64,000 nt of DNA from Pecten maximus (lineage: Eukaryota), in contig NC_047027.1 in assembly GCF_902652985.1 (NCBI RefSeq), positions 8,990,001-9,054,000 of the forward strand, written 5' to 3'. Shown in pieces: positions 23,078 to 47,334 of the stretch; position 1 is the stretch's first letter; each line of letters opens with the position of its first letter. Below the pieces are notes generated by a model that saw only the letters and a program-made list of their open reading frames with translations, made no database searches and was not told the DNA's origin. The position numbers and the translations under genes were made by a program.

Positions 23078-23185
23078 GCTAATGCTGATCAAGCTGATTT
23101 AGACCCAACTGCTAACGAAGCGGCCACTAAAATACAGGCTGGATTCAGAGGTCACAAGGTCAGAAAGGAGGTCAGGGCCAAAAAG
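23078..23185 (+). CDS. SPA17: IQ cassette exon ANADQADLDPTANEAATKIQAGFRGHKVRKEVRAKK
   Basis: Acceptor aatcaag (weak), donor AAG|GTAGGT; 108 nt, phase 0-0. Confidence 0.85.
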
Positions 23186-23244
23186 GTAGGTCAGAGTTCA
23201 AAGGTTACATTCTGTTATATCTTTGACTTTTGAGGATTTGAGGG

Positions 23245-23917
23245 AGTACATCATGTCACAGGTGTGTAAATGTTGTGACATTAGATAGAAGGGTGTACAT
23301 CATGTCACAGGTGTGTATATGTTGTGACATTAGATAGAAGGGTCTACATGATGTCACAGGTGTGTAAATGTTGTGACATTAGATAGAAGGGCGTACATCA
23401 TGTCACAGGTGTGTATATGTTGTGACATTAGATAGAAGGGCGTACATCATGTCACAGGTGTGTAAATGTTGTGACATTAGATAGAAGGGTGTACATGATG
23501 TCACAGGTGTGTAAATGTTGTGACATTAGATAGAAGGGTGTACATCATGTCACAGGTGTGTATATGTTGTGACATTAGATAGAAGGGTGTACATGATGTC
23601 ACAGGTGTGTATATGTTGTGACATTAGATAGAAGGGTGTCCATGATGTCACAGGTGTGTAAATGTTGTGACATTAGATAGAAGGGCGTACATGATGTCAC
23701 AGGTGTGTGAATGTTGTGACATTAGATAGAAGGGTATACATGATGTCACAGGTGTGTAAATGTTGTGACATTAGATAGAAGGGTCTACATGATGTCACAG
23801 GTGTGTAAATGTTGTGACATTAGATAGAAGGGTATACATGATGTCACAGGTGTGTAAATGTTGTGACATTAGATAGAGGGCGTACATGATGTCACAGGTG
23901 TGTAAATGTTTTGACAC
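23245..23917. repeat. 48-bp minisatellite with internal inverted repeat ATGTCACA/TGTGACAT, about 14 copies
   Basis: Tandem periodicity. Confidence 0.96.
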
Positions 23918-24835
23918 TAAACACTACCACCATTCAGTTTTTATAATTAACAACTGTGGGTGTAGTTTTTTTCTATTTAATTAGTATTTGTTTTCCTGTT
24001 ATATACAATTTTCAAATTTATTGATTTATCCTGTACATGTTTAAAGTCCGTTTTTTTGCCATTGCCTCCCACTCTGCCAGATCAAAGGCTAGGGTAAAAT
24101 TCCTAGGCCTATTGTGGGTTTACCAGAGATATCATTCACATTTTTAACTCGATCATGTCAACGTTTATGTGGGGACAGCTTCAGTTTATTTGTCAGTCTA
24201 AAATACATGAATAACAGATTAGTAATATATTGTTAAAAGTGTATCTGATGGTGACAATGGTTAGCTAAATAAGACTGTATGCCATATTATTTTAATTCAT
24301 CTTAAGCAGCTTTTCTTTGGATTACTTGAATTCTTAAATTGATGAACAATAACAAAACTTAACTGCTGTTCATGTCTAAACTCGACCCAAGAAGTTGAAA
24401 ATATCTCTCCTAAATAGTGAGAGTTTGCATGTTTAACTTTTTTTCAAATTGAAAAGTTCACATTTATTTGTAAAAATCTTTTTGCAGCATGGAAAATTTC
24501 CATATTTGAAGTGCTGCTACAATGTCTGATAACATGATATAAAATAGCAGTATATTTGTGTATCTGTTCTGCATTAAACAGGAACCATACTACAAAAAAT
24601 TATCATTAAAATGTTATCGTCTGTTTCCTTAATTACACCAGTGTGTAAAATTAGGAACGTAACAGTTTGCAGATGAATCTGCTTAGTATCAACATTGAGA
24701 TATCATGACTGAGAATATCAGAAAAACATCAAAGATAGTGTCTTACTGAAATTCATTTCCATTTAATCATTCTTGGGAGTGTCAGTATCATTTAATTCTT
24801 TTACGACAAAATTAGCTGACATACCAGCAAAACCT

Positions 24836-25031
24836 TTTTATGCCCCCCGGCCGCCATGAAATAGGGGGCTTATAGTGTTACCCATGTCTGTCCCAAACCG
24901 CCGCACTGCGTCCCGTCTCATCCCAATGTAACTACACAGTAGCTAATCTCTGGAATTTTAACTACTGATGTGATGTGATCAGGGTGTCAAGTGGCAGCGG
25001 GTCATTTATGTCTAACAGACATTTTCTAGTT
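24836..25031 (+). mobile_element. Short degenerate HINE-like element
   Basis: TTTTATGCCCCC...GGGGGCTTATAG 5' hairpin, gtctgtcc remnant, and 3' end ATGTCT-AAC-AGACAT-TTTCTAGTT. Confidence 0.5.
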
Positions 25032-25213
25032 TTAACAGCTAGCTTCTATGATTTCTATGGCAACTTTCAACACCACCATTTAAATTTCTGTTTTGTAATG
25101 TGTAACCTTTAAGGGAGGAAGTCGGTAGTATTTGCTGTATTTTCTGTTAGTTTGGTGTCTGATATACATATGAAAGTTCCATCAATCAATATGATTTTGA
25201 TTTTTCTTACTAG

Positions 25214-25345
25214 GAATCCCAAGAGACCAGCACTGAGGAGAAAAAAGAAGAAATTGATATTAATCTTGATGATCCTGAAGTAGAAAAAGCAGCGACCAAG
25301 ATTCAGGCAGGTTTCCGTGGCCACAGGACGAGAAAGGAAATGAAG
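25214..25345 (+). CDS. SPA17: Acidic-IQ cassette exon ESQETSTEEKKEEIDINLDDPEVEKAATKIQAGFRGHRTRKEMK
   Basis: Acceptor tttttcttactag, donor AAG|GTAAAT; 132 nt. Confidence 0.92.
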
Positions 25346-25945
25346 GTAAATACATACATCATGAGTATGTGTACCAGTGATCTGATTAATATTATATACA
25401 TCTTCTTTATACAGAATGCTTCTCCGGACTGTTTTCAAGCGAAAGGAATAACCGACTTTATATGTTGTACCTGCTTCCTTGGTAATCAATACAGTAAATA
25501 TATTAGTGGGATCAGCTTATAAACACATAAACAAGCACCAATTTGAGGTTAGTCAAGGTCACACAAGTATTTGGAATGTAGCATACATTTGTATATATTA
25601 TAATTTCAGATTACGATAGAAATAAGATTTCTCATATTTTTTGTTCTTATTGTAATCAGATTATTTAATCACCTAATTGAAAAAATTATACATCATCTTG
25701 GCTGTAAGTTCAGAATTTCCTTTTAAGAACAACACAATGCTATTTCTAATGATTATTTATAAACTTAACATTAGTGTGCTATTTTTTTTTATTTTTTTTT
25801 ATTACCAATGTAAGAATCTAGAATTCTTTTACTTTTAATGGAGATGAACTGATGAGTTCAATTATAGAGGTACTTAAGAGAGAAAGACTTGTACTTCTGT
25901 CAATTCGATAGCTGCCACATGAACTTCCAATTCACTAAATCACAG

Positions 25946-26488
25946 GGAACAACACAGACATCTGGTGGAGAAGAGGCTGGAGTATCTGATACAGGGGAGG
26001 TAACTCAAGAGAAATCAGATGAAACTAAAGTAGATGAGACTTCCCAAGAAAATACTGATGAAGTTAAAGAGGAAACATCTGATAAAAAAATAGATGAAAC
26101 TGAAGTTTCAGAGCAAAAATCTGACGAAGCTTCTGAACAAAAAACCGATGAAGTTTCTGAACAAAAAACTGATGAAGTTTCTGAACAAAAAACTGATGAA
26201 GTTTCTGAACAAAAAACTGATGAACAATTAGATGAGGTCAGAGAACAAAACTCTGATGAAAAAGTTGAGGAAACTCAGATTGAAGAAAAATCTGAAGAGA
26301 AAGTTGATGAAAACAAATTAGAACAAACTTCTCAAGAAATTGCGAAGGAAACCGTAGATCAGGCTCAATCAGAAGAAAAACTTGATGAAAATGTATCAGA
26401 TACTCCAGCTGAAAAAACAACAGATGAAAAATCAGAGGAAAAAGTTGAGGAAAGTCCTTCCACACAGACTGAAGAGCAAAATGAACAG
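25946..26488 (+). CDS. SPA17: Glu/Asp/Lys-rich disordered exon (181 aa, EQKTDEVS repeats), no IQ; read-through ends at TAG 26501-26503
   Basis: Lies within ORF 25889..26503; acceptor cacag, possible donor CAG|GTGATA; phase 0-0. Confidence 0.8.
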
Positions 26489-29400
26489 GTGATACAGCTG
26501 TAGAGTTATTACTAGTTAGAGAATCTATTGCTCTCTCTCCAAAACAAAACATAGACCAACATTCTGTATTTAACAGTTCTACTCCTCTACTACAGCGTCG
26601 CTCAGATTTTCTCAAGTTGCATATTTAACAGTTGATTATTAAATTTAACACCTTAATACCATTCATTATGCCTTTTTTGTGAAAGTCATCTTCAGCCAGT
26701 TTCTTATTTGAAATGATAGAAGGATTCTAATGATTTTTGTTTTTGTTTTCTTTATTTATATTTTCATGTTAAATGGAATTTGCAATATTGTTTTTTTAAT
26801 ATTCCTAAAATCCACATTTGTTTTGTATCCTGATTTGTCCGAAGACTTGCTTAATGAATAACTTCATTTGATGGTATATTTTACAATTGGATTTATTGTT
26901 GAACATAGGTAAAAGAATTATTAAACAAGTATAATTTACTGTTGTAATATGCACCTTGACAGAACTGACCCGTATTTGCTCTTTTCCTGGAAGCATTATG
27001 GATCTTTCCTGTATTTAATGAAATATATTTTTTCTAGATTAATATATAATGGGTTTGATGTAGATGTACCTACTCAGAGGGAGTATATATTATATAATCT
27101 ATTCTAGACACTAGATGTACAACTTTAGAAATATATCAGTAGTACTCTGTCAAATCAGGGAGTACAATTGTTTTTCTTTTTCTATACATTATTACAATTT
27201 AGAGTATTATAAAAAAAAATTAAAAAAAAAAAAAAAAAAAATTGTTTACCTGTGTTTATTTTTTCTGAATATTCTAATGAATCAAAGTGAATATAAATAC
27301 AATATTTAACAATGATAATTCTTTGTTTTATATTATTATTGTATGATTTTCCTTCTATAGTTAAGTACAAAATAATTACAATTTAATACATACGGCTAAT
27401 GTAGTTGCTAGAAATTGCTAGACGGTAAAGGGTTTTTGTAGATATTTTATAACAGATAGTTTTTCCTTTAAATTATCAAAATACTAATGAATTTGTGAAA
27501 TTTTCTTATTAAGTATTTTCCTATATACACACACAAGTCTTAGGAGTGAACAATATAATAACACCGCTTATCTCCCCTGCTCATGTATCGATCTGTATAT
27601 ATTACATCGTAGATATAAATCTACATTGGAAACAAATAACCAACCTTGCTTGTCCAAATTATACATTCCTCTACTAAACATATGTATCAGAAATACTAAC
27701 GAAGATATCTCTACTTTATGAAATATCATAAATGTTTAATTTGGTTAAATGTATTGATTTTTATTTCATGTATGTACTGAAGTATTTTTGTTTATAAGTA
27801 CATTTTGTTGGTATATGCTGGTGTCTGTATATTGATTAACGACTGTTGTAAATGAATTAAGTATATATATCACTCTGTTTGCCTGTCATTGTTCTATTTC
27901 AGTGATAGTTTAAGTTACAGCTGCTGAACTGGTGTGTTTCTTAATATAAAGTGTCTGCCCTTATATGACTCTTGCTGTTCAGAGGGCATCAAACCCTGAA
28001 AATTTATAAAAATAGAAATAGCATGCTGAAGTGTATCACCATGGATACAAGATATCATAAACTTATATAGTTTTGTTTTCAGGATCCTCCTTAATGCTGG
28101 CCTAAGAATGCTTAATCCTTTGTAGACTTTATATTGAATGTTTCATATCTTTTATTGTATTGATACTGTTTGTTCAAGCAGGTTTCTATATATGGTGAAG
28201 GGGATATGTGACAACTGACTTTGAACAAAATGAACAGTTTAAAAAAAATAGTAAATTGCATTGAATGTGGAACATTCTCTTTTTTTTTTTTTTTTTGTCA
28301 AATTGCATCAAAGTTCGGTCCAGCTTAACATGATTTGAAAAGAAAAATTTCCATATTTTGTTGAACAAAAGTTTATAAAGTACATATTGTATAATGACAT
28401 GTTGACGAACCTTAAATCTATATCAATTTAACTGCTCTTTATGTGGATGAATTAGACTTTTTGTATAATGTAAAGTTTCACTATCAATATTGCAAAAAAA
28501 TAAAGATATATAAATAGAAAACTTCTCTTAAAAATTAGAAGGTTGACATGTATGATGATGATTATAAGTATCATACACATATGGTGGATTCCAAATAATG
28601 ATGTTTTGATGTATAGTACAATAAGTAGTTTCAAACTGTGTTGTTGGTATAACCATGGTATAAGAAGTGAGTTTTTTTGTTTGAAAGGTGTTGGAATTCA
28701 AATGACATTTCTTAATGCAGTCAAATTATAATACTTGTAGGTGTATGTCACCAACAGCTTCTGTATACTATATCACAGCACTGCCAAGTATCATAGGATT
28801 TCAAAGCTTATAAAACCATATTCTCACTACCACCATTAATTTTTTTGACACACTTAAATACATTAAAATGCATGTCCATGAGACAAGAAAGCTAGACCCA
28901 TGGATGCTTCATTATATTGATAGAAAACAAAACATGCAGAATGAAAATAAGTTTTGATTTGAAATTTCGGACTTTTAAGCAGAATGAAAATAAGTTTTGA
29001 TTTGAAATTTCGGACTTTTAATAATTACCACAAAACATATCCCCATTCCGAAATATTTAATCCTTTATTAAAAAAGTATTGGAATTGATGATCAGTGTGA
29101 ATTTTTTAAAACTTAGATCCACTAAATATATAACATTGGCCCAGAATGGACCAATGTCAGGTGCCCCTCTTCATGATCCAAGCTGTATATGTCTGGTAGT
29201 TTTTTGTTTGTCAAGGAAATTTGAAATATTAATTTATTTTTATTTCATTCAGCATTAAATCATCTATGATCAGTTAATTTTATAAAGTCAATGAAGTAAG
29301 CATTTAAAAATATATAGAAAAATGTCAAAGGCCAAAGTTACTATAGAAAAGCAGATTTTCTACTGCTATCAATATCCTAAATTTTCCTCAGATTGTTATT

Positions 29401-29538
29401 GTTCTTGCTTAGATGAACTTAATATACATTTATAACACAGCTAGCTAGTATAGCTGGGATTGCCAAAAGATTGTATTTCGTGGTATTTGATTTCAATATC
29501 CATAGGAATTACCGATATTCTGTATTAACTTTTTACAG

Positions 29539-29694
29539 TCTAGCCAAGATGCTCCAAAGTCTGATGAGACAGAGAAAAGCGAGCCTGAAAAGATAGACAT
29601 TGATTTAAATGACCCTGATGTCGTAAATGCTGCCACAAAAATTCAGGCTGGGTTTAAGGGTTATAAGACTCGAAAAGACATGAAAGGACAACAG
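29539..29694 (+). CDS. SPA17: Acidic-IQ cassette exon SSQDAPK...[35 protein letters not shown]
   Basis: Acceptor ctttttacag, donor CAG|GTTGGG; 156 nt. Confidence 0.9.
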
Positions 29695-32600: not shown

Positions 32601-33057
32601 CACGACCACAATAGTAATGGTGATAATTGTGGTGAGGATTTCTTATACAAGATACAATTATTACGTGATCCGTGTGGCTGAGTGTTGGCACACACAGCGG
32701 ACACTTTATATCATAAAGTGAATATTTTGGCCTACGTAAGAGATTGTTAATATTTACATGTATATGATGAGATGTGATTGAATTTCCATCTATGATTAAA
32801 ATCTATACACACACCTCATAATTTTACATGTATATGATGAGATGTGATTGAATTTCCATGTATGATTTAGATCTATACACACACCTCATAATTTGCCTAA
32901 TGTCAAATATCCTTAAGGGATGCAATAGGTATGCAGCTTTTTCCACAGACGTCAATAGAAGACTTGTTTTCTTTTAAAATGTACCGTAATCGTAGGCGAT
33001 TGACATTGTGAGATTGTTACATATTGACATGCCATTCTTATAAAGTCTCTATGGAAT

Positions 33058-33192
33058 TACACATCAGCCAATCAAATCCGTAAAGCTACACATCAGCCAA
33101 TCAAATCCGTAAAGCTACACATCAGCCAATCAAATCCGTAAAGCTACACATCAGCCAATCAAATCCATAAAGCTACACATCAGCCAATCAAA
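33058..33192. repeat. 29-bp tandem repeat (TACACATCAGCCAATCAAATCCGTAAAGC), about 4.6 copies, abutting an acceptor
   Basis: Tandem periodicity. Confidence 0.93.
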
Positions 33193-33210
33193 CTGATACT
33201 TTTATTCCAG

Positions 33211-33363
33211 TCGTTATCTGATCAGGAGTCGGGAATGCCTGATGCGGATCAGGGCGATACAGACGACATTGATTTAAATGATCCAGATGTGGCAAAGGCA
33301 GCCACAAAAATCCAGGCTAGTTTCAAAGGTCACCAAGTGCGAAAAGAAATCCGTAAAAAACAG
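33211..33363 (+). CDS. SPA17: Acidic-IQ cassette exon SLSDQ...DDIDLNDPDVAKAATKIQASFKGHQVRKEIRKKQ (neuromodulin-like IQ)
   Basis: Acceptor ttttattccag, donor CAG|GTTCGA; 153 nt. Confidence 0.9.
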
Positions 33364-34994
33364 GTTCGAACTGCACGTTAAACCGGGCTTAGTTTGTCGG
33401 CCGTGATGTCTTTATTTTCTGTGCTGGTAATAGGTGTATATTGTTTATCACTCAGATGGGATCTCTTTTTATCATTTCCTATTATCATTTTTTGTTTTTG
33501 TTTTTGTTCATAGTTGTCGGTGTGCCCATAGGTAACCTTTCAGCATGGTACAGCTTTTCATAAATACTGTCTTACTGTTTCGTAGTAAAGAGCAAGAAAA
33601 CTTTGGATTCTATATGCCATGACTTATTGTCAAATAAATCAGAGAAAATATCTGGTAAAACCTGAATCCTCACTGTTATCCTAATGATATTGGTTTTCTC
33701 TACATAGACACATTTGTTATAGGATTTTCATTCCCTGACTAGAATCTAGCTGATATGTAGCTTTTACAAACATGTATGTGTATTGACATTTTTAGCTGAT
33801 CTTGCTAAATCTATTGGTTTACCAATTTTGGCTGCTGTTAAGTTACCTTGGATCAGGCAGCTCTAAAGTCATATCGGGACATAAAAGAAAATCTCAAGGA
33901 TACAGTGTTTTCAAGGTTATGTCTCCACACAAAGATCTTACAGGAGTATATATAAAGATAATGTGACCATGTAATTTGAGCATCTGTGTAAATTGCACAG
34001 GTACTTTTTGTAGCTGAAAATGCTGAAAACAAAACCTGTATATTTATTTGCAGAAAAAAAAAATCATTTTATTTTATGCTTTATGTCTTGAAATAACCAT
34101 TGCTTCCCCTAGACATTTACATATTGGTGATATCATTCGATATGACAACATAATTTGGTGTGTTCAAGGCAAGCTTTATTATCATGGCATGTCAGTGGTA
34201 AGCCATTTTGGTGACATATAAAACCAGTCATAGAAAACAAAACTGTTTACAAGTTTTAACCCTCTAGTGGTATAGACTTCATCACCTTCCATCAAATCAA
34301 AGACATGTAAAGTGTTCGCGGCACACTTAAAGATGCTGAGGGCAGTTCAGTATGTTGCTTTGTAATTGTGTGTATACTGTTCATCATTATTGGCCGAGTT
34401 ATGTCCCTTTGAACTTGTGAGGACTTGTAGGGGACATGTTTTTAAGCAATTTTCAGTAATTGCTTAAATGTCAATTTTACTTTTTTGCTAAAGCTAAGAC
34501 AGATGATAAATCTAGCTGAGATTTCTTTGAAGTTACAAGGGCTGATGGTGATGGGTGCTTTAATTGCTTCATTTTGGTGACTTTATCTATTTATAGAATA
34601 AGGAATCATTGCTTTATGGAATAGGGACCTGTAGGATAAGGATGGCAATATAGATGGGGATAACAATTCAGGCGTGATTTTTATTGGCAGGTTGCTGGAC
34701 AATTTTGAGGTGATACTTGTACACTTGTAACTAATGTTCTCATCGTCTGGCTTCCTGTGTTTCAGTGTCATGGTTTGTGAATAAAGCATAGCATTGTATC
34801 TATAAGGGCCTGCCAAATCAATACTCGTTATACAATTTGTAGTTTGTCAGTCTGGCTTCTGTGATTTCTGACCCCCGGCGTTTCCTGGGTGTTTCCAAAC
34901 TGTGGTCAACATTGTACGTGGTAAAGTTCTATTGACCTTCAGCACAGAGTATAGAATTCTATGAATATGATACATATAATCATCGTCTATAACA

Positions 34995-36082
34995 CTGTCA
35001 TTGAAGGTTTGTCCATGATTCACCTCTAGACCTCTTTGTCCTAGTCTCTGTCATTGGGGATTTCTGCCCTTTGTTGACCTCTAGACCTGTTGGGGTAAGT
35101 CTCTATCATTGGATAGTTCTGTCCCTTGTTGACCTCTAGACCTCTCAGTGCTAGTCTCTATCATTGGAGATTTCTGTCCTTGGTTCACCTCTAGACCTCT
35201 CAGTGCTAGTCTCTATCATCAGAGATTTCTGCCCTTTGTTGACCTCTAGACCTCTTAGTGCTAGTCTCTATCATCAGAGATTTCTGATCATGGTTGACCT
35301 CTAGACCTCTTGGTGCTAGTATTTATCATTGAAGGTTTGTACTTGGTTCACCTCTAGACCTCTAAGTGTTAATCTGTACCATTGGAGATCTCTGCCCTTT
35401 GTTGACCTCTTGACCTGTTGGGGCAAGTCTCTATCATTAGAGATTTCTGTCCTTGGTTGACCTCTAGACCTCTTAGTGCTAGTCTCTATCATTGGAGATT
35501 TCTGTCCTTGGTTCACCTCTAGACCTCTCAGTGCTAGTCTCTATCATCAGAGATTTCTGCCCTTGGTTGACCTCTAGACCTCTTAGTGCTAGTCTCTATC
35601 ATTGGAGATTTCTGTCCTTGGTTCACCTCTAGACCTCTCAGTGCTAGTCTCTATCATCAGAGATTTCTGCCCTTGGTTGACCTCTAGACCTCTTAGTGCT
35701 AGTCTCTATCATTAGAGATTTCTGTCCATGGTTGACCTCTAGCCCTCTGAGCGCTAGTCTCTATCATCAGAGATTTCTGTCCATGGTTGACCTCTAGCCC
35801 TCTGAGTGCTAGTCTCTATCATCAGAGATTTCTGTCCATGGTTCACCTTTAGACCTCTTAGTTCTAGTCTCTAACATCAGAGATTTCTGCCCTTTGTTGA
35901 CCTCTATACCTCTTAGTGCTAGTCTCTAACATCAGAGATTTCTGTCCTTTGTTGACCTCTAGACCTCTTGGTGTTAATCTGTACCATTGGCTATTTCTGG
36001 CCTTTGTTGACCTCTAGACCTCTTAGTGCTAGTCTCTAACATCAGAGATTTCTGTCCATGGTTGACCTCTAGACCCCTTGGT
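34995..36082. repeat. 59-bp minisatellite (GACCTCTAGACCTCTTAGTGCTAGTCTCTATCA...), about 18 copies
   Basis: Tandem periodicity. Confidence 0.94.
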
Positions 36083-36352
36083 GATAGATATGTGTGGGGT
36101 TTGATTGTATCTGTTGTTCCTCTGTCACCACTGGGAGTTGGAATCTTTGATTACCGACCTCATTAGTAGCTGTGTTGTATCACTCTGTATTACATTTTCA
36201 TAACTTGTCCATAACAGACATTCCATGAGAATAGTAGCATTAACAAGTATCAAAAATATTTCATAATCATCGACCCAGATGGTTTTCAATTTTTTAAAGG
36301 TGACCACAAATTCTCTGGTCTATTTATCTACAGTAACAGTGATGAAGGTGAC

Positions 36353-38888
36353 TGATCTCCCAGTATCTAACTGTAACTGTGGAGACAGATCTCCCAGTAT
36401 GTGTAACTATAACTGTGGGGACAGATCTCCCAGTATGTGTAACTATAACTGTGGAGACAGATCTCCCAGTATGTGTAACTATAACTGTGGGGACAGATCT
36501 CCCAGTATGTGTAACTATAACTGTGGAGACAGATCTCCCAGTATGTGTAACTATAACTGTGGAGACAGATCTCCCAGTATGAGTAACTATAATTGTGGAG
36601 ACAGATCTCCCAGTATGTGTAACTATAACTATGGAGACAGATCTCCCAGTATCTAACTATAACTGTGGAGACAGATCTCCCAGTATGTGTAACTATAACT
36701 GTGGGGACAGATCTCCCAATATGTGTAACTATAACTGTGGAGACAGATCTCCCAGTATGTGTAACTATAACTGTGGAGACAGATCTCCCAATATCTAACT
36801 ATAACTGTGGAGACAGATCTCCCAGTATGAGTAACTATAACTGTGGAGACAGATCTCCCAGTATGTGTAACTATAACTGTGGAGACAGATCTCCCAGTAT
36901 GTGTAACTATAACTGTGGAGACAGATCTCCCAGTATGTGTAACTATAACTGTGGAGACAGATCTCCCAGTATGTGTAACTATAACTGTGGGGACAGATCT
37001 CCCAGTATGTGTAACTATAACTGTGGAGACAGATCTCCCAGTATGTGTAACTATAACTGTGAAAGACAGATCTCCCAGTATGTGTAACTATAACTGTGGG
37101 GACAGATCTCCCAATATCTAACTATAACTGTGGAGACAGATCTCCCAGTATCTAACTATAACTGTGGAGACAGATCTCCCAGTATGAGTAACTGTAACTG
37201 TGGAGACAGATCTCCCAGTATGTAACTATAACTGTGGAGACAGATCTCCCAGTATCTAACTATAACTGTGGAGACAGATCTCCCAGTATGTGTAACTATA
37301 ACTGTGGAGACAGATCTCCCAGTATGTGTAACTATAACTGTGGAGACAGATCTCCCAGTATGTGTAACTATAACTATGGAGACAGATCTCCCAGTATGAG
37401 TAACTATAACTGTGGAGACAGATCTCCCAGTATGTGTAACTTTAACTGTGGAGACAGATCTCCCAGTATCTAACTATAACTGTGGAGACAGATCTCCCAG
37501 TATGTGTAACTATAACTGTGGGGACAGATCTCCCAGTATGTGTAACTATAACTGTGGAGACAGATCTCCCAGTATGTGTAACTATAACTGTGGGAACAGA
37601 TCTCCCAGTATGTGTAACTATAACTGTGGAGACAGATCTCCCAGTATGTAACTATAACTGTGGAGACAGATCTCCCGGTATGTATAACTATAACTGTGGA
37701 GACAGATCTCCCGGTATCTAACTATAACTGTGGAGACAGATCTCCCAGTATGTGTAACTATAACTGTGGAGACAGATCTCCCAGTATGTGTAACTATAAC
37801 TGTGGAGACAGATCTCCCAGTATGTGTAACTATAACTGTGGAGACAGATCTCCCAGTATGTGTAACTATAACTATGGAGACAGATCTCCCAGTATCTAAC
37901 TATAACTGTGGAGACAGATCTCCCAGTATGTGTAACTATAACTGTGGAGACAGATCTCCCAGTATGTATAACTATAACTGTGGAGACAGATCTCCCAGTA
38001 TGTGTAACTATAACTGTGGAGACAGATCTCCCAGTATGTGTAACTATAACTGTGGAGACAGATCTCCCAGTATGTAACTATAACTGTGGAGACAGATCTC
38101 CCAGTATGTGTAACTATAACTGTGGAGACAGATCTCCCAGTATGTGTAACTATAACTGTGGAGACAGATCTCCCAGTATGTGTAACTATAACTGTGGGGA
38201 CAGATCTCCCAGTATGTGTAACTATAACTGTGGAGACAGATCTCCCAGTATGTGTAACTATAACTGTGGGACAGATCTCCCAGTATGTGTAACTATAACT
38301 GTGGAGACAGATCTCCCAGTATCTAACTATAACTGTGGAGACAGATCTCCCAGTATCTAACTATAACTGTGGAGACAGATCTCCCAGTATGAGTAACTAT
38401 AATTGTGGAGACAGATCTCCCAGTATGTGTAACTATAACTATGGAGACAGATCTCCCAGTATCTAACTATAACTGTGGAGACAGATCTCCCAGTATGTGT
38501 AACTATAACTGTGGGGACAGATCTCCCAGTATGTGTAACTATAACTGTGGAGACAGATCTCCCAGTATGTGTAACTATAACTGTGGAGACAGATCTCCCA
38601 GTATGTGTAACTATAACTGTGGAGACAGATCTCCCAGTATGTAACTATAACTGTGGAGACAGATCTCCCAGTATGTGTAACTATAACTGTGGGGACAGAT
38701 CTCCCAGTATGTGTAACTATAACTGTGGGGACAGATCTCCCAGTATGTGTAACTATAACTGTGGGGACAGATCTCCCAGTATGTGTAACTATAACTGTGG
38801 AGACAGATCTCCCAGTATGTGTAACTATAACTGTGGGGACAGATCTCCCAGTATGTGTAACTATAACTGTGGGGACAGATCTCCCAGT
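36353..38888. repeat. 36/34-bp satellite (GATCTCCCAGTATGTGTAACTATAACTGTGGAGACA), about 70 copies
   Basis: Tandem periodicity; explains the many repetitive ORFs in this region. Confidence 0.98.
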
Positions 38889-39427
38889 GTCTATTGTAGG
38901 TGTGCTACTGTCAGTATACACACGAGCTCAGGTGTTTGTACAGTTTTCGATGCGTATGTTATCGTGATGTTTCATCACATTATTTTTCCCCTCGGTACGA
39001 CTTTTACTTTCCTCACGATCAATCAGACAAAGCTCATGCACACTTGGATGACACCACTTGCCTCGCGGTGCCGTCACGTTTTTTTCACCATCTTCGTTTT
39101 ACACTGTGTACCTTTTTTAAACTTTGCTCCATCAGTTGTTGGCATGTTACCGACATGTTATTCCTGTTTTGATTTCAAAGTTTTGAGAAAGAGTTCATAA
39201 GAAAATAACTTTTCATTATAATTACCATATGACATTTGAATACTTCTTTGACACATGAATTTTCAGTGTAACGTTTAACGGCAGGGTTGAGAAATCTTAC
39301 CACTATAACCATATATTGAAACATACAGTCATTTGAAGCTGTGTAGTTGAGTTTTTTTTTATCACTGTGAGTACTAGTACCGATCAATATCGCTCAAGCC
39401 TGCTAAGATACTGTACTTGTGTTACAG

Positions 39428-39607
39428 TCGGCTTCTGAGACCGACAGAGGACAAACCAACATCCCTGGTGGAGATGATAAACATGTAGGGGAGGTCGACA
39501 GTGAAATAGACATTGATTTGGCAGATCCTGAGGTGGAAAGGGCTGCCAGTAAAATTCAGGCCGGATATAAAGGTCTAAAAACTCGGAGGGAACTCAAATC
39601 AATCAAG
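39428..39607 (+). CDS. SPA17: Acidic-IQ cassette exon SASETD...EIDIDLADPEVERAASKIQAGYKGLKTRRELKSIK
   Basis: Within ORF 39419..39613; acceptor gttacag, donor AAG|GTTTGA; 180 nt. Confidence 0.9.
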
Positions 39608-40406
39608 GTTTGATGGCACATAGAGTTTTTGTCATTTTAATTTCTCTTTTTTTACAGTATCATTATTTAGATTTGCAGGACTTTGCATGAATGGTTCACA
39701 AATTAGTTACTTTCAGAATGTGATATTATATATCACACTTTTTTCAATCATTATTATCCACTCATTGCTTCATCATGTTTTAAATTCAATCTGGTTGACA
39801 TTTTACAATGCAGTTTTTAGCATGTTTAATGTTCTTTCTGATTCTTGTCATTTTCACTGTCTTTGTCAGGATCTTTTCACATTGAACCTTATATAATCTG
39901 TGCAATGACTTCTTGCAGCTTATCTAAGTGTCAAATGGAAAACATATTTTTAAACTTAAATTCACTCATTGGTGATACTATTAATATGTTTATCTAATTT
40001 CATATCAATAAGGACTTATTCCTATTGTTTCTTTTTTATTTAAATAAATATTGTAAACTAAAACATTTAAAATATCAGTTATATCTTATATGTGTTTGAT
40101 CGACATTCTATCATTATGATTGCAAATCCTAGATTTTATTGTTGGTTTACTTTCTCTCAAATGAATTTCTAGAATTTGTAACAATACTGTCAATTTGATC
40201 CTCAAGCCACATGATCTTTGTTAATCAGGGTCCAGTTTGTTTACCGTGTGATATAAAACCAAGTTTTTTAATCTGTGTTGATGTTTTCAATGCCGTATTA
40301 ATGTATTTTTGTACTTTAATAATTTCTTCGGGATATTTTTAATGTTTTTATTATATATACTAGTTTTTTAATAGAAATATTATGTACATGTTCATTTCAC
40401 TGCACA

Positions 40407-40731
40407 CTACATCATGTTTTGGGTTTATAGGTCCATAACTACATCATCTGTTGGGTTTATATGTCCATAACTACATCATGTGTTGGGTTTATATGTCCAT
40501 AACTACATCATGTGTTGGGTTTATATTTCCATAACTACATCATATGTTGGGTTTATATGTCCATAACTACATCATGTGTTGGGTTTGTAGGTCCATAACT
40601 ACATCATCTGTTGGGGTTGCATGTCCATAACTACATCATGTGTTGGGTTTGTAGGTCCATAACTACATCATCTGTTGGGTTTATATTTCCATAACTACAT
40701 CATGTGTTGGGTTTATAGGTCCATAACTACA
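40407..40731. repeat. 32-bp minisatellite (GTCCATAACTACATCATGTGTTGGGTTTATAT), about 10 copies
   Basis: Tandem periodicity. Confidence 0.93.
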
Positions 40732-40949
40732 GTATATCACCAGTATACTAACATTACACACACTCCTTCCATTTCCTGTGTAAAGTAGATGTCATGGTAA
40801 ACCTTCAACTCATCAATCATCATTTTACAAGTGTGGGCGGTAACTTCATTTCCTTTACTTTATACAGATTACAAATGAAGTTTTGCATGCAGAGAATGGG
40901 TAACTTTTGGGCAAATTAAATGTTTAAATGCTGTCACATGACCCAGGTC

Positions 40950-42150
40950 TCTGTTGAGGATTGGCACATAAGATGTTGTTACAGTGTGGTGGGTCCTCCT
41001 GATTTCATTTGTCTTTGCAAATATCTGAAATTGAGATGATTGTTTGAAACCAAAAATAGGTTTCCTGAAGACAAAGACCTTCACACTTTCTATAACAATA
41101 AAGGTCACTTTTAAAATCTAACATTTGTGTAATTTTTTGTTCTTCAAGCTAACAATTCGTCCCTATGATGGTGTTTAGTTTCCTGTTTTGTCATAATGTG
41201 GGCTTTATTATCTTCACTGGACTGGTAGTTAACTTATGTGGATACGTTCACTTATTATGGTCCTTTTAGAAGGAAAACTTCCTTTGTTAAATGTCATCCT
41301 AGAACATAGAACTCCATCATCCTCTCTCACTCCCGCCTGCTGGTCTGTTACACAACATCATACAGGGATATACCGGACATGCTGTAATGAGGAGGAAGTT
41401 TACAGCCTGTAATAAAAATAAGTTTTCTCTAAGTTAATCATCATTAAGTCTATAATAATGGCCTTAAATGTTAGATACCTCCTCACAGGTTTCATCACTG
41501 TATATATATACCTTTATGAGTATGAGTTATGCAGATCTGGGGCCTTTGTTGTGAGTATGAGTTATGCAGATCTGGGGCCTTTGTTGTGAGTATGAGTTAT
41601 GCAGATCTGGGGCCTTTGTTGTGAGTATGAGTTATGCAGATCTGGGGCCTTTGTTGTGAGTATGAGTTATGCAGATCTGGGGCCTTTGTTGTGAGTATGA
41701 GTTATGCAGATCTGGGGCCTTTGTTGTGAGTATGAGTTATGCAGATCTGGGGCCTTTGTTGTGAGTATGAGTTATGCAGATCTGGGGCCTTTGTTGTGAG
41801 TATGAGTTATGCAGATCTGGGGCTGTTGTTGTAAGTTTCACATGTGCCTCTTTGATATAGTCTTCTTTGTTTTGGATGACATTCACGGGGCCCAAATCTC
41901 TCATCTTCTGTCTTCTGCATGAAATACCTGCTATCTTTTATCTTCAACATGGCAATGTTCCTGACAAATAGCCTTCTAGGCATTGTCGGTTATATACACA
42001 CGTTTTGTGATTGTCATACATAAAATTTCTGATTTCATCCGTCTCATCCTTCTCTCTGTGATGGTTTGGGTTCTCTGTTTTTATTTTTCCAACTTCTTCC
42101 TTTGTTGATATTTGAGTTTCAATCTGTCATTTTGCATCAACATTGCAATT
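40950..42150 (-). pseudogene. Decayed Penelope-like retroelement RT fragment, interrupted by a 35-bp tandem array
   Basis: Minus-strand peptide remnants occur in PLE order: DLGPVNVIQNKEDYIKEAHVKL (about 41835-41900), EFYVL (about 41301-41314), RTIIS (41250-41264), with stops and frameshifts between them. Confidence 0.45.
41517..41832. repeat. 35-bp near-perfect tandem repeat (TGAGTATGAGTTATGCAGATCTGGGGCCTTTGTTG), 9 copies
   Basis: Units are identical except the last. Confidence 0.97.
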
Positions 42151-42421
42151 CTGATTTGTTCTGTACCATTTAGGTTTTGTTTTCCTTGTTTTCCCTATTG
42201 TTGTGTTTGGACTCTATTGACAAGTATTGTAACAGGTCTGAGATACATCAGTACAGATTTATATGATATTGTTCAGTTTGTATCCAAACTGTCGTTTTTG
42301 ATATAGGAATGCTCCAATGTAACTGATTTATAGTAAAACTTTGTGTCTCTAAATGGGCTGATGATTTCAAGCTCCTCTTTTTCTCAAACACTTCAATATT
42401 GGACCCTACCTACTCCTGTAG

Positions 42422-42601
42422 GAGCCTATATCCGCCTCACCACCTACACAGAACTCGATGGAGAGTGTTCCACGCGAAGAGGAAGTTATTGATATTGACC
42501 TCAATGACCCGGAAGTAGAAAAAGCAGCGGTAAAAATCCAATCAAGTTTCAAAGGACTAAAGGCACGGAAGTCAAAGACAAGAGTACCGGCTGGTGTGGA
42601 G
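42422..42601 (+). CDS. SPA17: Pro-rich acidic-IQ cassette exon EPISASPP...IDIDLNDPEVEKAAVKIQSSFKGLKARKSKTRVPAGVE
   Basis: Acceptor ctcctgtag, donor GAG|GTTTGA; 180 nt. Confidence 0.88.
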
Positions 42602-43407
42602 GTTTGAAATCTTCTTTTCTTGTCTCTCTTGTTTCTTGTCATATTTTCTGCTTCTTTTATGATATGATAAGAGTTATTGATGTTTTATGCTTAGCTTGGG
42701 GGTGGGGGGGGGGGATGATGATTCTAGATAAAATGTCTTAGCTGTGCTGTTCTTGCTAAGAATCTATTTAACTTTGTGTTAATTATGTGGCAAGTAAATT
42801 TTCTATACCTGCTGTAAAGTTGATTGCGAATGTCAGCAGTGTATTTTAACCTACAGAGCTGTTAAATTAATCAATTACTATATTTCTGAAGAACATAAAG
42901 CATAAATTTTGCAGAGAACGTAAGGGTTTGACACAAGGGCTGTAGGAACTTAGTTTTGGATGAATTCATTGTATTTTTTATATAATTTTCAGCAAATTTC
43001 ACAAAGGGATACACTTTATATATATCATTTTATTTGATGAAATGTTACAAATTCAGAACACGATATTGTAAAAGGAAGTTAGAATATCATTAAGAAAACA
43101 ATTTTCTCTTATTTTTTAGAAGTTGTAAACTTTAGCAACTTAAAAACAATATCAAACACATTTTTTTTACTAGATTGCATGGGTATATGGTGTTTTCAAG
43201 AGAAACTCCAGACTTGAAACTGAAATAGGAAGTTTGGATATGTTTCAGAAAATTTCTTTTTTTTTTAAGAAGTTACAAATTTTAAGAAAATTGAAAAAAA
43301 AATTTGAATAAACCTGGTACTCTCTGATATAAATATCATGCATGAGTACATTTTCATTACCACAATTCACAAACTGTTTTTCTTTCTACTTTCTCTTTTC
43401 ATCATAG

Positions 43408-43578
43408 TCACCACCTGTTAATAATCTAAATATCACAAAAACGGACACTCCACCTCTCGTCAATATTCCAGTCGAGGAAGAAATTGACATTGATTTGAAT
43501 GACCCTGAAGTCGCGAAAGCAGCACTTAAGATTCAGTCAACATTCAAAGGCTTAAAGTCTCGGAAGTTTGGCTATAAG
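43408..43578 (+). CDS. SPA17: Pro-rich acidic-IQ cassette exon SPPVNN...EIDIDLNDPEVAKAALKIQSTFKGLKSRKFGYK
   Basis: Long polypyrimidine tract ending catag, donor AAG|GTTTGC; 171 nt. Confidence 0.9.
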
Positions 43579-44572
43579 GTTTGCACTTGGCTGTTGTGTT
43601 TGTGAAAATTTGTGAAAAATGTTGAAAACTTCAAGGTGAATCTTTGTACATTGTATTGATTGTGTAGTGTTAGGCAGGGATGTTCTTACACGATCATATA
43701 CCGTTCATGATTTGTCATGCTGAGTAAGGTATAGAATGAGAACCGAGTCCAAAGATATAAAGGTAAACATTACCAGGTTCTCCTTCCAGATAGAATTTCA
43801 TTTCTCATTTTAGAATATTTATATATTAGGTTTAACACCCAGTTGTGTGTGTACATGGAACACTGATAATCTCTCCCCTATCTAGTTTTTATCACAAGGC
43901 ACAAGACACTATGATTATTTAGGGTCTTGTGAACACTAATTCTGGATACATCTACATATATTGATTGATTATATTGTTTCCTTGTAATCTTGAAAATAAG
44001 CTAACTATACCGTATTGCAGCCTATATTTCTCCTAGGAATGATTCCATGGATAATTTTTCAGACTTTTTTGATTTATGGGGTTTTAGTGCAAGCAAAATG
44101 AAGATTTAAAAAAAAAATATTGAGCAATATGGAATTGCAGCCAGTGTTTAGCTCGATCTAGCTCAAGGGCAAAGATGAGGGATTGATTTATCAAAGCCAT
44201 ATTATAAGTTTGTGTAGTACAATCACTAATTACGACCTGGTAAAATTTCATGTATTTTAAAAGATTAGACTCCAACCTGCAAGGATTCCATTTTTATTTT
44301 TGTCAAAATATTCTTCCATAAAGTGTGAATCCTGTTTATTTTCTACATTGGGTGAAAGGAATAAATGGCTTCATTTATTATACCAATGTTATTTTCAATA
44401 CCATGTCTTATTTTCAAGATTCTTCCTTGCTAGTAATCATGGCTTATTTTCAGAATTTCCGGTTCTCTCTGTCATTACTCTAAATACTTTATATCCCAGG
44501 GTTTTACCCGACGTCGAGATTCTATCAGTCTTGATGTTTCACTCTTTACGCTGTCTAAACAATTATTTGCAG

Positions 44573-44752
44573 ACATCAGATTCTTCCCCTCCAATCACTA
44601 ATGTCAAACCTACATCCCCTTCACCGCCTGTAACAGCTCCCATAGAGGACGATATCGATATTGATCTAGATGATCCAGAAGTTGCGAAAGCAGCTGTCAA
44701 GATTCAATCAACATTCAAAGGTCTCAAGTCTCGGAAATTAAAGACTAAACAG
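44573..44752 (+). CDS. SPA17: Pro-rich acidic-IQ cassette exon TSDSSPP...DIDIDLDDPEVAKAAVKIQSTFKGLKSRKLKTKQ
   Basis: 3' part of ORF 44300..44758; acceptor atttgcag, donor CAG|GTTTGA; 180 nt. Confidence 0.9.
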
Positions 44753-45221
44753 GTTTGATATTTTTTGTGGAATGTATGAGGAATTTGAATCAATTAATTA
44801 GATTCTGAACACTTTGTCAACTGTAAAGAAAGGAAAGACTACAAAAATTATTTTCATATGGATTTACATATATTTTTATAGTTGATGATTATGTGTATAA
44901 GTGTGAAAAGGAAACTAGGGGGCTTATTGTTATCACAGTTCAATAAGTCAGTTACTGAATGGATCCTCAGGTTTTTGTTTATCACACAGTTTAAACAGTT
45001 TGTCGGATGGACCAGATTTGTTAGTTTATGAAATATGGACTGACCTAGTAATAATATGATTATGCATTCTTGTGACTCTTAATTGAGAAAAGTTTTATGT
45101 ATAAAATGTTCAATAGAAAATTGAAAAACCTAGGGACCAGCAAATAAACAACTCGTTGGACTTCCAAGAACCAAGTTGTTTATCTTCTATCTGTGAATAT
45201 TCTGATATATATTGTTTGTAG

Positions 45222-45410
45222 TCAACCCAGCCACCTTCCTATAACATCCAACCTTCCCCTCCGCCTCCTGCCCCTGCGGCCCCTCCGCCTCAGGCTCCCA
45301 TGGAGGATGAAGTTGACATTGATTTAAATGATCCTGAAGTTGAAAAGGCAGCCCTTAAAATACAATCTACGTTTAAAGGTTTAAAGTCGCGGAAGTTTGG
45401 AGCCAAGAAG
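45222..45410 (+). CDS. SPA17: Pro-rich acidic-IQ cassette exon STQPPSYNIQPSPPPPAPAAPPPQAP...KIQSTFKGLKSRKFGAKK
   Basis: Acceptor tgtttgtag, donor AAG|GTTTTT; 189 nt. Confidence 0.88.
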
Positions 45411-45515
45411 GTTTTTAGTTTTGTTGTTTGCTTCTTAACATTAAAGAACAAAATATTTTGAAAATCTGAATTTAATAAAACTTTAAATTTGAAAACATAT
45501 CTTAATGCAATGTGG

Positions 45516-45713
45516 TGATATCAAAACAATAGTTTATTTGACATTGATAATTATATTGTTTGAGTCCTAATTGTGTACAGTAGATATCAAAACAATAGTT
45601 TATTTGACATTGATAATTATATTGTTTGAGTCCTAATTGTGTACTGTAGATATCAAAACAATAGTTTATTTGACATTGATAATTATATTGTTTGAGTCCT
45701 AATTGTGTACAGT
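45516..45713. repeat. 66-bp tandem triplication
   Basis: GATATCAAAACAATAGTTTATTTGACATTG... occurs three times. Confidence 0.9.
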
Positions 45714-45952
45714 AGTTGATACTTGTTGAGAACAATCATTAACATTCACCGAACTAAAAAGTTATTTGCCTCTATCACTTTAAAACATTCGGCCTTAATG
45801 TATAAGTGTTGAACACAGTACCCTGTTGATAGATCTTAACTAGATTGTCAACGTGTCTAGAAAATTTAAGATTTGAGCTTGTTAATATAAAGTGTAACAA
45901 AAATAAAAACCAGCTTCTATCACATGACTTAGATATGATATCGTAATTACAG

Positions 45953-46126
45953 CCATCACCCAATAGCAACGAAATTGTATCTCCACCCGTCCCTTCATGT
46001 CCCGTAACTCCGCCCAAGCAGGAAGAAATTGACATCGATCTGAATGATCCAGAAGTTGAAAAAGCTGCTGTGAAAATTCAAGCTACCTTTAAAGGTTTAA
46101 AGTCGCGGAAATTTGGATCAAAAAAG
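45953..46126 (+). CDS. SPA17: Pro-rich acidic-IQ cassette exon PSPNSNE...KIQATFKGLKSRKFGSKK
   Basis: Acceptor taattacag, donor AAG|GTTTGA; 174 nt. Confidence 0.88.
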
Positions 46127-46441
46127 GTTTGATTCACTGTCATGGTTTTAAAGAAAATAGCTGTAATTGTGGAAGTCATTACAATCGAGTTTGATATTAG
46201 GCATATATAGACTGAATTGTGGCTCTCTTTCTAAGGAAATGATATATTATGCAGAAAACAGAACTGAATTAAAAATGTATGCAGAAATAAAAGTAAAAAT
46301 TAATTGTTTAATTAGTGAGTTTGGTGGCAACACCTGGGAATATACTTTCTTTAATGACAGAATTATACACATTTTTATGTCACTGGCTGGAAATCCTGGC
46401 CTTTAGGTATGTGAACACACTGATATATTTTCTTACTTCAG

Positions 46442-46612
46442 TCTTCAGCGCCACTAACAAATAATATTCCAACACCCCCTCCATCGACTGTCAATATCCC
46501 ATCAGAAGAGGAAATTGACATCGATTTAAATGACCCAGAAGTAGAAAAGGCGGCTGTAAAGATCCAAGCTACCTTTAAAGGGCTAAAGTCCCGGAAGTTT
46601 GGGAAATCAAAG
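46442..46612 (+). CDS. SPA17: Pro-rich acidic-IQ cassette exon SSAPLTNN...KIQATFKGLKSRKFGKSK
   Basis: Acceptor ttttcttacttcag, donor AAG|GTTGGA; 171 nt. Confidence 0.9.
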
Positions 46613-47184
46613 GTTGGATATTTGGGTGTTGTCTGTATGCTTCCTTGTTCCAAGAATTGTTTGATTCAGAGGACAACAAATATTTCTTACAAGATACGAC
46701 CACTACAAGTTACTTTACTGGGTGAATGGTAGAACTAATACTTTCGTGAAGTAAGATTGAAATTTAGATTTTAGTCGGGCCTCTTTAACTGTAAATCATT
46801 ACCTCAAAAACAAAGAAAAGGAGAGAACCATATTTGTTATATAGGTCTAATATAATATATTATGGCATCGTTTGCCCATTTTCTCTCTCTTACCAATAAT
46901 TACAATCAGTATAGAGACATACTAACATTATTATGGTGTATATTTTATGCTTCATTACCTAATAGAAATTGGCTAATTGAAATATATAGCCAAGGAGAAA
47001 ATGTCATGTACTAGTAGAAATCTGATGACAATTGGAGGTCTTTGGGACACTTGATGGCGTTTCAGTATTGGGAACAGACTCGTTTGTATCACTTAAGAAT
47101 ATGACCGATGTAAATCCTTTGTAATGAGATTACTTGCGTGTACTGAAGCAGGTTCAAATGTCATTATATTGTTCACACTTCCAG

Positions 47185-47334
47185 ACATCTGTAGAACAGC
47201 CACTGAATCACAGGGACACTAAACCACCGGAAGTCGTAGATATTGACTTGACAGATCCAGAAGTTGAGAAGGCAGCCGTTAAGATTCAGGCTAGCTTTAA
47301 AGGCCTCCGGGCACGAAAAACAAATGTTCAAAAG
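47185..47334 (+). CDS. SPA17: Acidic-IQ cassette exon TSVEQ...VVDIDLTDPEVEKAAVKIQASFKGLRARKTNVQK
   Basis: Within ORF 47134..47340; acceptor cacttccag, donor AAG|GTTTGA; 150 nt. Confidence 0.9.

What the first reader, a model, noticed from the sequence alone, without database searches (positions are those of the whole stretch)
23078..47334. Thirteen symmetric phase-0 cassette exons, most with non-consensus GTT donors
Seen: every exon from 23078 to 47334 is a multiple of 3 in phase 0. All ten from 29539 onward have T at donor +3 (GTTGGG, GTTCGA, GTTTGA x5, GTTTGC, GTTTTT, GTTGGA). GTTTGA also reads Val-stop if the donor is skipped. Inference: the layout allows combinatorial or block-wise skipping (2^13 theoretical in-frame combinations) or staged truncation, setting the number of calmodulin sites per molecule.
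Basis: partly seen in the sequence, partly recalled or inferred. Interest (0 to 1): 0.7.

Follow-up and report, generated by a model that had tools for sequence, protein, structure and literature searches.

The report
Scallop calmodulin-module exons keep rare donors
A scallop's version of the sperm-and-cilia protein Sp17 carries a long row of repeated exons, nearly all encoding one predicted calmodulin-binding module, and ten of them keep a rare splice signal, likely so that cells can tune how many modules go into the protein.

Summary
All 13 exons are symmetric phase 0, and the ten donors are as stated. RNA-type contigs use 7 of the 8 GTT donors tested.

The gene is the scallop (Pecten maximus, by RefSeq names) SPA17/Sp17 ortholog. 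It is extended by up to 17 IQ motifs, most of PEP-19 acidic/IQ type, and 12 of the 13 exons carry one each.

GTT is rare in a scallop background (1 of 67 introns). Its run here comes from exon duplication. Yet +3 T stayed in 10 of 10 copies while synonymous sites fell to 36% identity (random 27%), which points to selection. A U-rich tract follows the donors.

The 2^13 reading is not supported. Skipping is seen for 6 of 13 exons in RefSeq models (2 of 3 non-GTT, 4 of 10 GTT, three of these as one block), and no skip joint appeared in four runs. No truncation isoform exists among 8 models.

Module-wise skipping recurs in RefSeq isoforms of other molluscs. Eight of ten GTT modules carry the neurogranin-type Ser/Thr. 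Verdict: a new variant of known parts, of moderate interest.

The parts
2949..3057 (+). Alternative first coding exon (isoform X2), starts MGTKFS; replaces the RIIa docking domain, whose exon lies about 42 kb upstream of the window
4751..4821 (+). Exon with the second half of the SPA17 extended D/D region; donor GTATGT
15018..15196 (+). Exon with the first two IQ motifs (the second matches the IQ of vertebrate SPA17); donor GTAAGT, phase 2
17646..17778 (+). Acidic/IQ exon (IQAG); 11th GTT donor, GTTAGT; in 8 of 8 isoforms
18743..18820 (+).
23078..23185 (+). Exon 1 of 13, IQ module (IQAG), donor GTAGGT; skipped in X3, X4, X8 and in two Mizuhopecten proteins
25214..25345 (+). Exon 2 of 13, acidic/IQ (IQAG), donor GTAAAT; in 8 of 8 isoforms
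25946..26488 (+). Exon 3 of 13, 181-aa acidic spacer without IQ, donor GTGATA; skipped in X7, X8 and in two Mizuhopecten proteins
29539..29694 (+). Exon 4 of 13, acidic/IQ (IQAG), donor GTTGGG; in 8 of 8 isoforms
33211..33363 (+). Exon 5 of 13, acidic/IQ (IQAS), donor GTTCGA; in 0 of 8 Pecten models, ortholog in 7 of 8 Mizuhopecten proteins and in Argopecten; likely unannotated cassette exon
39428..39607 (+). Exon 6 of 13, acidic/IQ (IQAG), donor GTTTGA; in 8 of 8 models; its joint to 42422 not seen in four runs
42422..42601 (+). Exon 7 of 13, acidic/IQ (IQSS), donor GTTTGA, used in contigs
43408..43578 (+). Exon 8 of 13, Pro-rich linker plus acidic/IQ (IQST), donor GTTTGC, used in contigs
44573..44752 (+). 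Exon 9 of 13 (IQST), donor GTTTGA, used in contigs
45222..45410 (+). Exon 10 of 13 (IQST), donor GTTTTT, used in contigs; first of the block skipped in X6
45953..46126 (+). Exon 11 of 13 (IQAT), donor GTTTGA, used in contigs; skipped in X6; matches PEP-19 (2n77, E 1e-5)
46442..46612 (+). Exon 12 of 13 (IQAT), donor GTTGGA, used in contigs; skipped in X6
47185..47334 (+). Exon 13 of 13 (IQAS), donor GTTTGA; loose ends in three runs continue with the first letters of exon 53776
53776..54412 (+). Exon with two IQAG modules and a PTEQAPA repeat; donor GTGAGA, phase 1
62407..62508 (+). First exon of the C-terminal region that ends in a Pex19-like domain and CTIL
63210..63286 (+). Next C-terminal exon; four more follow beyond the window end

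Best explanation
The 13 exons are the repeated middle of the scallop Sp17 gene, 12 of them encoding one predicted calmodulin-binding module each; they likely arose by tandem exon duplication, and the ten GTT donors are likely kept weak by selection so that inclusion of these modules can be regulated. Mechanism, step by step. (1) Shown: each module exon ends 15-22 codons after the IQ in phase 0, so any exon or block can drop out in frame. (2) Inferred: one ancestral AG|GTTTGA donor was copied with the exon. (3) Shown: +3 T and +5 G stayed while neighbouring free sites decayed. (4) Inferred from human work: such donors pair with ordinary U1 snRNA through the exonic AG, +5 G and a U-pseudouridine contact, helped by a TIA-type protein on the U-rich tract behind the donor. 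(5) Shown in gene models: a few exons or blocks are skipped, giving 13-16 IQ motifs (17 with exon 33211). (6) Inferred: because 8 of the 10 GTT modules carry Ser/Thr at the neurogranin PKC position, splicing would set the number of kinase-switchable calmodulin sites on a cilia-type scaffold, in a few tissue-set patterns and not in thousands of combinations.
For: Gene identity: residues 1-138 match vertebrate Sp17 over nearly its whole length (E 1e-31), with Pfam RIIa and IQ. Modules match PEP-19 at its hydrophobic anchors, Pro and acidic residues (PMC5122967 passages; alignment). Rarity: 1 of 67. Selection: 4-fold sites 123 of 343 identical (36%; 27% by composition), intron +7..+60 31%, and 0 of 21 synonymous columns invariant, against +3 T in 10 of 10 and +5 G in 9 of 10. 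Fewer U1 matches than background (6.2 against 7.5, p 0.0008). T content at +7..+46 is 45% against 36% elsewhere in the same introns (p 0.0002), the pattern reported behind weak donors (PMC2766253 passages). Human AG/GUUUG donors are read by normal U1 (PMC4856993 Table 1 and section 16), and 38 of 42 scallop U1 copies read are canonical there. Conserved skips: exons 18743, 23078, 25946 and 33211 vary in both Pecten and Mizuhopecten, and module skips appear in all 11 mollusc isoform sets. Homologous exon ends in unnamed contigs mostly have A/G at +3 (17 of 19), while a second lineage has T/C in 10 of 10.
Against: Six of the ten GTT exons are in all 8 Pecten models, and no skip joint was found in four runs. 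Non-GTT exons are skipped at least as often (2 of 3), and the GTT donor at 17778 is in 8 of 8 models. A human CAG/GUUUGG donor gave 91% inclusion in a minigene, so GUUUG need not mean weak. The background is 7 genes from one 600-kb region, probably constitutive, and holds no known cassette exons. The tree that groups the ten is weak (84% on 84 bases). RefSeq isoforms are gene models, not sequenced molecules. The ten modules have Lys where neurogranin has the key Arg38. The second lineage's copies are recent (75% 4-fold identity), its donors are predicted only and its background is unknown. Calmodulin binding, phosphorylation and tissue were not tested.
Confidence: 0.58

Rival explanations
1. 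Inherited but harmless: most GTT exons are constitutive. The donor was copied with the exon, works well enough through AG, +5 G and U-pseudouridine pairing, and is not under selection to stay weak; only a few exons are truly alternative.
For: Six of 10 GTT exons are never skipped in 8 models; consecutive joints only in four runs; 91% inclusion of a human GUUUG donor; the ten form one group in the tree.
Against: It does not explain why +3 stayed T in 10 of 10 while 0 of 21 synonymous columns stayed fixed, when A or G at +3 makes up 63 of 67 background donors; nor the local U-rich tract.
Confidence: 0.25
2. Staged truncation or decay: the GTTTGA motif is kept because an unspliced donor reads Val-stop, giving shorter proteins without the C-terminal anchor, or sending retained-intron transcripts to nonsense-mediated decay.
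For: Stop at codon 2 in 5 of 10 against 0 of 35 background phase-0 donors; +6 A in 7 of 10 against 9 of 67; contigs run through several of these donors into the intron, two introns bridged whole.
Against: +3 T is irrelevant to Val. The other five read on for 5-39 residues, and overall read-through is not clearly shorter (p 0.057). AATAAA within 200 bases in 2 of 10 against 12 of 67. No model ends there in two scallops. Intron cover in contigs may be pre-mRNA or DNA.
Confidence: 0.1
3. An internal promoter upstream of exon 42422 makes a separate short product from the Ser/Thr block, and the donors serve the cell type that uses it.
For: Contigs of X1 and X4 enter exon 42422 unspliced from 42111 and 41794 and then splice onward; the 39607-42422 joint was not seen. 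Ser-Met-Glu in this exon is kept in 4 of 4 scallops.
Against: Thirteen upstream ATGs in 41794-42421; contigs cannot show starts; all 8 models splice 39607 to 42422.
Confidence: 0.07

Closest known systems
SPA17 / Sp17 (R2D2 docking-domain protein of cilia and sperm tails)
   Same: N-terminal RIIa-type D/D domain with its conserved flanks, followed by an IQ motif; residues 1-138 align to the vertebrate protein (PMC8339350 and PMC11276731 passages).
   Different: Vertebrate protein is about 150 aa; this one is 1272-1515 aa with 13-17 IQ motifs, an alternative first exon and a Pex19-like CaaX end.
PEP-19 (PCP4), neurogranin, GAP-43 calmodulin regulators
   Same: Acidic run with three hydrophobic anchors and a Pro before the IQ core; Ser/Thr three residues after the IQ Ile in 8 of 10 GTT modules, the place of neurogranin Ser36.
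   Different: Those are small single-motif proteins; here the unit is an exon repeated in one chain, with Lys at the Arg38 position and Thr in five modules.
Symmetric cassette-exon clusters in disordered regions (TNNT3 exons 4-8; symmetric exons born by tandem duplication)
   Same: In-frame optional exons born by tandem duplication (PMC2447309 abstract; PMC3632108 abstract).
   Different: Here each exon is a whole signalling-protein binding module, and ten share a rare donor.
Human AG/GUUUG donors read through +4U-pseudouridine and +5G (Tan et al. 2016), and weak donors followed by U-rich TIA sites
   Same: Six of 10 are AG|GTTTG; 10 of 10 have exonic AG; U-rich tract behind.
   Different: Known cases are scattered single donors; here a paralogous row keeps the motif after neutral sites have saturated.

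Membership tests
SPA17 / Sp17 | N-terminal RIIa-type docking and dimerisation domain with conserved flanks | tested here: met
   Pfam RIIa E 1.5e-11; 7my4_A residues 3-73 E 1.9e-25
SPA17 / Sp17 | IQ motif after a short linker, colinear with the vertebrate protein | tested here: met
   Residues 1-138 align with 9fqr_Ic and 8j07_K, E about 1e-31
SPA17 / Sp17 | AKAP binding with ROPN1L; location in cilia or sperm tail | not testable with these tools
   An oyster transcript named Sp17 is high in testis, gill and palps (PMC3348941 passages); its identity with this gene was not checked
PEP-19 acidic/IQ regulators | Hydrophobic anchors (F30, I32, M34), Pro37 and acidic residues before the IQ | tested here: met
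   I, L, D, P, IQ invariant in 14 of 14 aligned modules; alignment to 2n77; residues
PEP-19 acidic/IQ regulators | Small free protein with one motif | tested here: not met
   13-16 IQ motifs per isoform; the modules work like PEP-19 at best, the protein is not a PCP4
PEP-19 acidic/IQ regulators | Speeds calcium exchange at the calmodulin C-lobe | not testable with these tools
   needs stopped-flow assay
Neurogranin/GAP-43 PKC switch | Ser at IQ Ile+3 | tested here: inconclusive
   Ser in 3 and Thr in 5 of 10 GTT modules, Gly in the other 2 and in the five other modules of that table; phosphorylation untested
Neurogranin/GAP-43 PKC switch | Arg at Ile+5 | tested here: not met
   Lys in 10 of 10 GTT modules (role of Arg38)
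Combinatorial cassette-exon cluster | Symmetric exons | tested here: met
   13 of 13
Combinatorial cassette-exon cluster | Each exon skipped independently | tested here: inconclusive
   6 of 13 skipped in models, three only as a block; no skip joint in four runs of contigs, which drop rare forms
Mutually exclusive array (Dscam type; features recalled) | One exon of the array per transcript | tested here: not met
   Neighbouring exons are joined to each other, up to three in one contig
AG/GUUUG donors read by normal U1 | Exonic AG, +4 U, +5 G, canonical U1 5' end | tested here: met
   AG 10 of 10, +4 T 7 of 10, +5 G 9 of 10; no matching U1 variant in 38 of 42 copies read
TIA-dependent weak donors | U-rich tract just behind a weak donor | tested here: met
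   T 45% against 36% in the same introns and 32% in background
TIA-dependent weak donors | Inclusion depends on TIA binding | not testable with these tools
   needs knock-down or minigene

The most novel reading that the evidence does not exclude
A splice-signal class acts as a switch for a kinase-sensitive calmodulin reservoir. The ten GTT donors form one co-regulated set, held weak across old duplicates, that adds or removes up to eight PKC-switchable PEP-19-like modules on an Sp17 scaffold in a given ciliated or sperm cell. A second animal lineage reached the same pairing of tandem modules and pyrimidine +3 donors on its own.
Probability: 0.25. Interest if true: 0.7.

Novelty: new variant of a known kind. 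Interest (0 to 1): 0.45.

Why it matters
The row is a natural experiment on why non-consensus donors persist: ten paralogous donors kept the rarest +3 base while the free sites next to them saturated, and one minigene set can test it. It also shows an invertebrate Sp17 as a large spliced array of PEP-19-like modules, which links a ciliary anchoring protein to the vertebrate neuronal calmodulin tuners. RefSeq names for this gene (titin-like, futsch-like) hide all of this, and exon 33211 is missing from its models. The parts themselves (symmetric cassette exons, GUUUG donors, U-rich helpers) are known.

Tried and rejected
GTT as species norm: rejected, 1 of 67. That sample is limited. Of 16 exon queries, 6 scallop proteins came back. 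Rabaptin mapped over 639 of 967 residues. Clathrin gave 26 of 27 junctions by homology, one with a small margin, kept (GTG).

A U1 variant that reads GTT: none in 38 of 42 copies.

Recent copying as the whole explanation: rejected by saturation. GTT as a property of every such module exon: rejected, 1 of 19 predicted donors in other contigs (long open frames and modules without AG|GT at codons 17-20 were left out).

Missed module exons or paralogous arrays: none further in the window; only a different one-frame IQ cluster on contig C18.

Mutually exclusive splicing: rejected.

RBFOX and other motifs (recalled motifs, nine tested on two sides): TGCATG behind 3 of 13 exons against 5 of 67 (nominal p 0.045) does not survive the number of tests, and the T-rich words only follow base content. 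Acceptor pyrimidine tracts do not differ from background (p 0.39).

Expression by tissue: no RNA holder listed on record. The four runs laid are contigs whose RNA status is a guess, though they hold spliced joints. Only 39200-48700 was laid, so the donors at 29694 and 33363 and the upstream skips have no read check here.

No structure or complex prediction was run. Three look-ups of earlier scan findings gave nothing.

Paper searches listed no paper describing this multi-IQ mollusc gene, and none giving mollusc +3 frequencies; the library lacks most subscription journals. No supplements were read.


Full report
What is there. A six-frame scan found a repeated IQ motif on the plus strand between 15 and 54 kb. 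A protein search with the last IQ exon returned 100% matches named Pecten maximus, and the clusters hold eight RefSeq isoforms. Mapping them gave the exon table, and 24 coding exons reproduce isoform X1 exactly. The first 138 residues align with vertebrate Sp17 at E 1e-31, so the gene is the scallop SPA17 ortholog. It continues with 13-16 IQ motifs and ends in a Pex19-like domain (E 0.002 against solved PEX19; Pfam Pex19 in the Mytilus ortholog) and CTIL.

The observation. All 13 exons are multiples of three in phase 0, and the ten donors read as stated. In contigs of four runs laid on 39200-48700, six GTT donors appear as GT..AG joints to the next exon. The seventh (47334) appears as loose ends that match exon 53776. 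The joint from 39607 was not seen, and no joint skips an exon. These runs are RNA only by guess, and contigs drop rare forms. Exon 33211 is absent from all 8 Pecten models, but its peptide is in Argopecten and in 7 of 8 Mizuhopecten proteins, so it is likely a real cassette exon.

Is GTT unusual? I placed 41 introns of six other scallop genes exactly and 26 clathrin introns by homology with no preference at +3. At +3 there were A 54, G 9, C 3 and T 1; among AG|GT donors T was 1 of 47. The upper 95% limit is 8%. The sample is small, regional and probably constitutive. Phase 0 is ordinary (35 of 67). No U1 copy among 38 of 42 read has a changed pairing end.

Copying or selection? The module exons end at the same place, 15-22 codons after the IQ, and the ten group together weakly (84%), so one ancestral donor was likely copied. 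The copies are old: 4-fold sites are 123 of 343 identical (36%, composition gives 27%), intron positions +7..+60 are 31% identical, and 0 of 21 synonymous columns are invariant. Against that, +3 T is kept in 10 of 10, +5 G in 9, +4 T in 7 and +6 A in 7. Since A or G at +3 is the norm, I infer selection against strengthening. The donors have fewer U1 matches than background (6.2 against 7.5), all ten have exonic AG, and the next 40 bases are T-rich (45% against 36% in the same introns, p 0.0002). Human AG/GUUUG donors are read by ordinary U1 through +5 G and a +4 U-pseudouridine contact; one gave 91% inclusion (PMC4856993, passages and section 16). U-rich tracts behind weak donors are the TIA-U1C pattern (PMC2766253, passages), and exon-intron compensation is general (PMC10599564, passages). 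In unnamed metagenome contigs, homologous module ends have A or G at +3 in 17 of 19 predicted donors. One other lineage has T or C in 10 of 10, but its copies are recent and its background is unknown.

Are they cassettes? In Pecten models, 23078 (X3, X4, X8), 25946 (X7, X8), 33211 (all) and the block 45222-46612 (X6) are skipped; seven exons never are. That is 2 of 3 non-GTT and 4 of 10 GTT exons, so GTT does not predict skipping in the data at hand. The skips of 18743, 23078, 25946 and 33211 recur in Mizuhopecten. Single and combined losses of whole IQ modules appear in all 11 isoform sets compared, including mussel, oyster, abalone, chiton and clams. These are gene models, which to my knowledge usually rest on RNA-seq joints. 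Module-wise splicing is thus a conserved habit of the gene; 8192 combinations are not shown.

Val-stop. It is more frequent than background (5 of 10 against 0 of 35), but it is inherited with the motif and cannot explain +3 T. No model ends there, and poly(A) signals are not enriched (2 of 10 against 12 of 67). Contigs do run through several donors, which pre-mRNA or DNA would also give. I keep truncation or decay as a minor rival.

What the modules likely do. An exon peptide matches PEP-19 (E 1e-5), and the residues that anchor PEP-19's acidic run on calmodulin and speed calcium exchange (PMC5122967, passages) are kept across 14 aligned modules. At the position of neurogranin Ser36, whose phosphorylation blocks calmodulin binding (PMC3589724, passages), 8 of 10 GTT modules have Ser or Thr; five non-GTT-block modules have Gly. 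The Thr block has 5, 6, 8 and 5 copies in four scallops, and the mussel and oyster proteins checked are nearly all Gly. The Arg that matters in neurogranin is Lys here. Binding and phosphorylation are untested. Sp17-named transcripts are high in bivalve testis and ciliated tissue (PMC3348941, PMC7720611, passages), but I did not check that they are this gene.

Verdict. The feature is real and has a likely regulatory reason, built from known parts. Best reading 0.58, harmless inheritance 0.25, truncation or decay 0.10, internal promoter 0.07. Five searches listed no paper on this gene's structure, within a partial library. Novelty: new variant of a known kind. Interest 0.45.

Noticed in passing
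window 2949-3057: Alternative first exon starts MGTKFS, a Gly-2/Ser-6 myristoylation-like start (motif recalled). Similar starts occur in Mizuhopecten, Mytilus, Haliotis and Ruditapes isoforms, so the N-terminus may switch between AKAP docking and membrane anchoring.
   Followed up: partly
window 62407-63286 and L011: C-terminal Pex19-like domain ending in CTIL (CaaX-like, motif recalled) in scallop, mussel and Lineus proteins; oyster, abalone and clam proteins and Mizuhopecten X7 end earlier. A separate, stronger Pex19 match lies at G000:C13:13.41 Mb, so this looks like a diverged second copy fused to Sp17.
   Followed up: partly
window 18821-18910: Reading through the donor of exon 18743 gives one more acidic/IQ-like motif and a stop: a possible short terminal isoform close to vertebrate Sp17 in layout.
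   Followed up: partly
window 41794-42470: Contigs of two runs enter exon 42422 unspliced and splice onward; Ser-Met-Glu is kept in four scallops; possible internal start.
   Followed up: partly
window 25051-25064: X-box-like site (RFX, pattern recalled) 150 bases before exon 25214; 11 pattern matches in the window, six in tandem repeats, no shuffle control.
   Followed up: no
window 45279: One run carries a 9-base in-frame insertion in the Pro-rich part of exon 45222, likely an allele.
   Followed up: no
L245, L251, L237-L244: An unnamed animal has tandem phase-0 acidic/IQ exons with GTTCAT, GTCGAT, GTTGAT and GTTTGA donors.
   Followed up: partly
P0005, P0008, P0040 and other hits: Crustacean-type proteins join about 20 IQ modules to glutathione-transferase N-terminal domains, some with RIIa.
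   Followed up: no
window 271-2151, 6340-12287, 35010-38888, 60949-61698: Long tandem-repeat arrays fill the introns (periods 38, 32, 55, 36, 21); their long open frames are repeat artefacts.
   Followed up: no
L149-L150 (G000:C7:2.41 Mb): A cluster of six shorter, diverged U1 copies (158 bases) with a normal pairing end.
   Followed up: no
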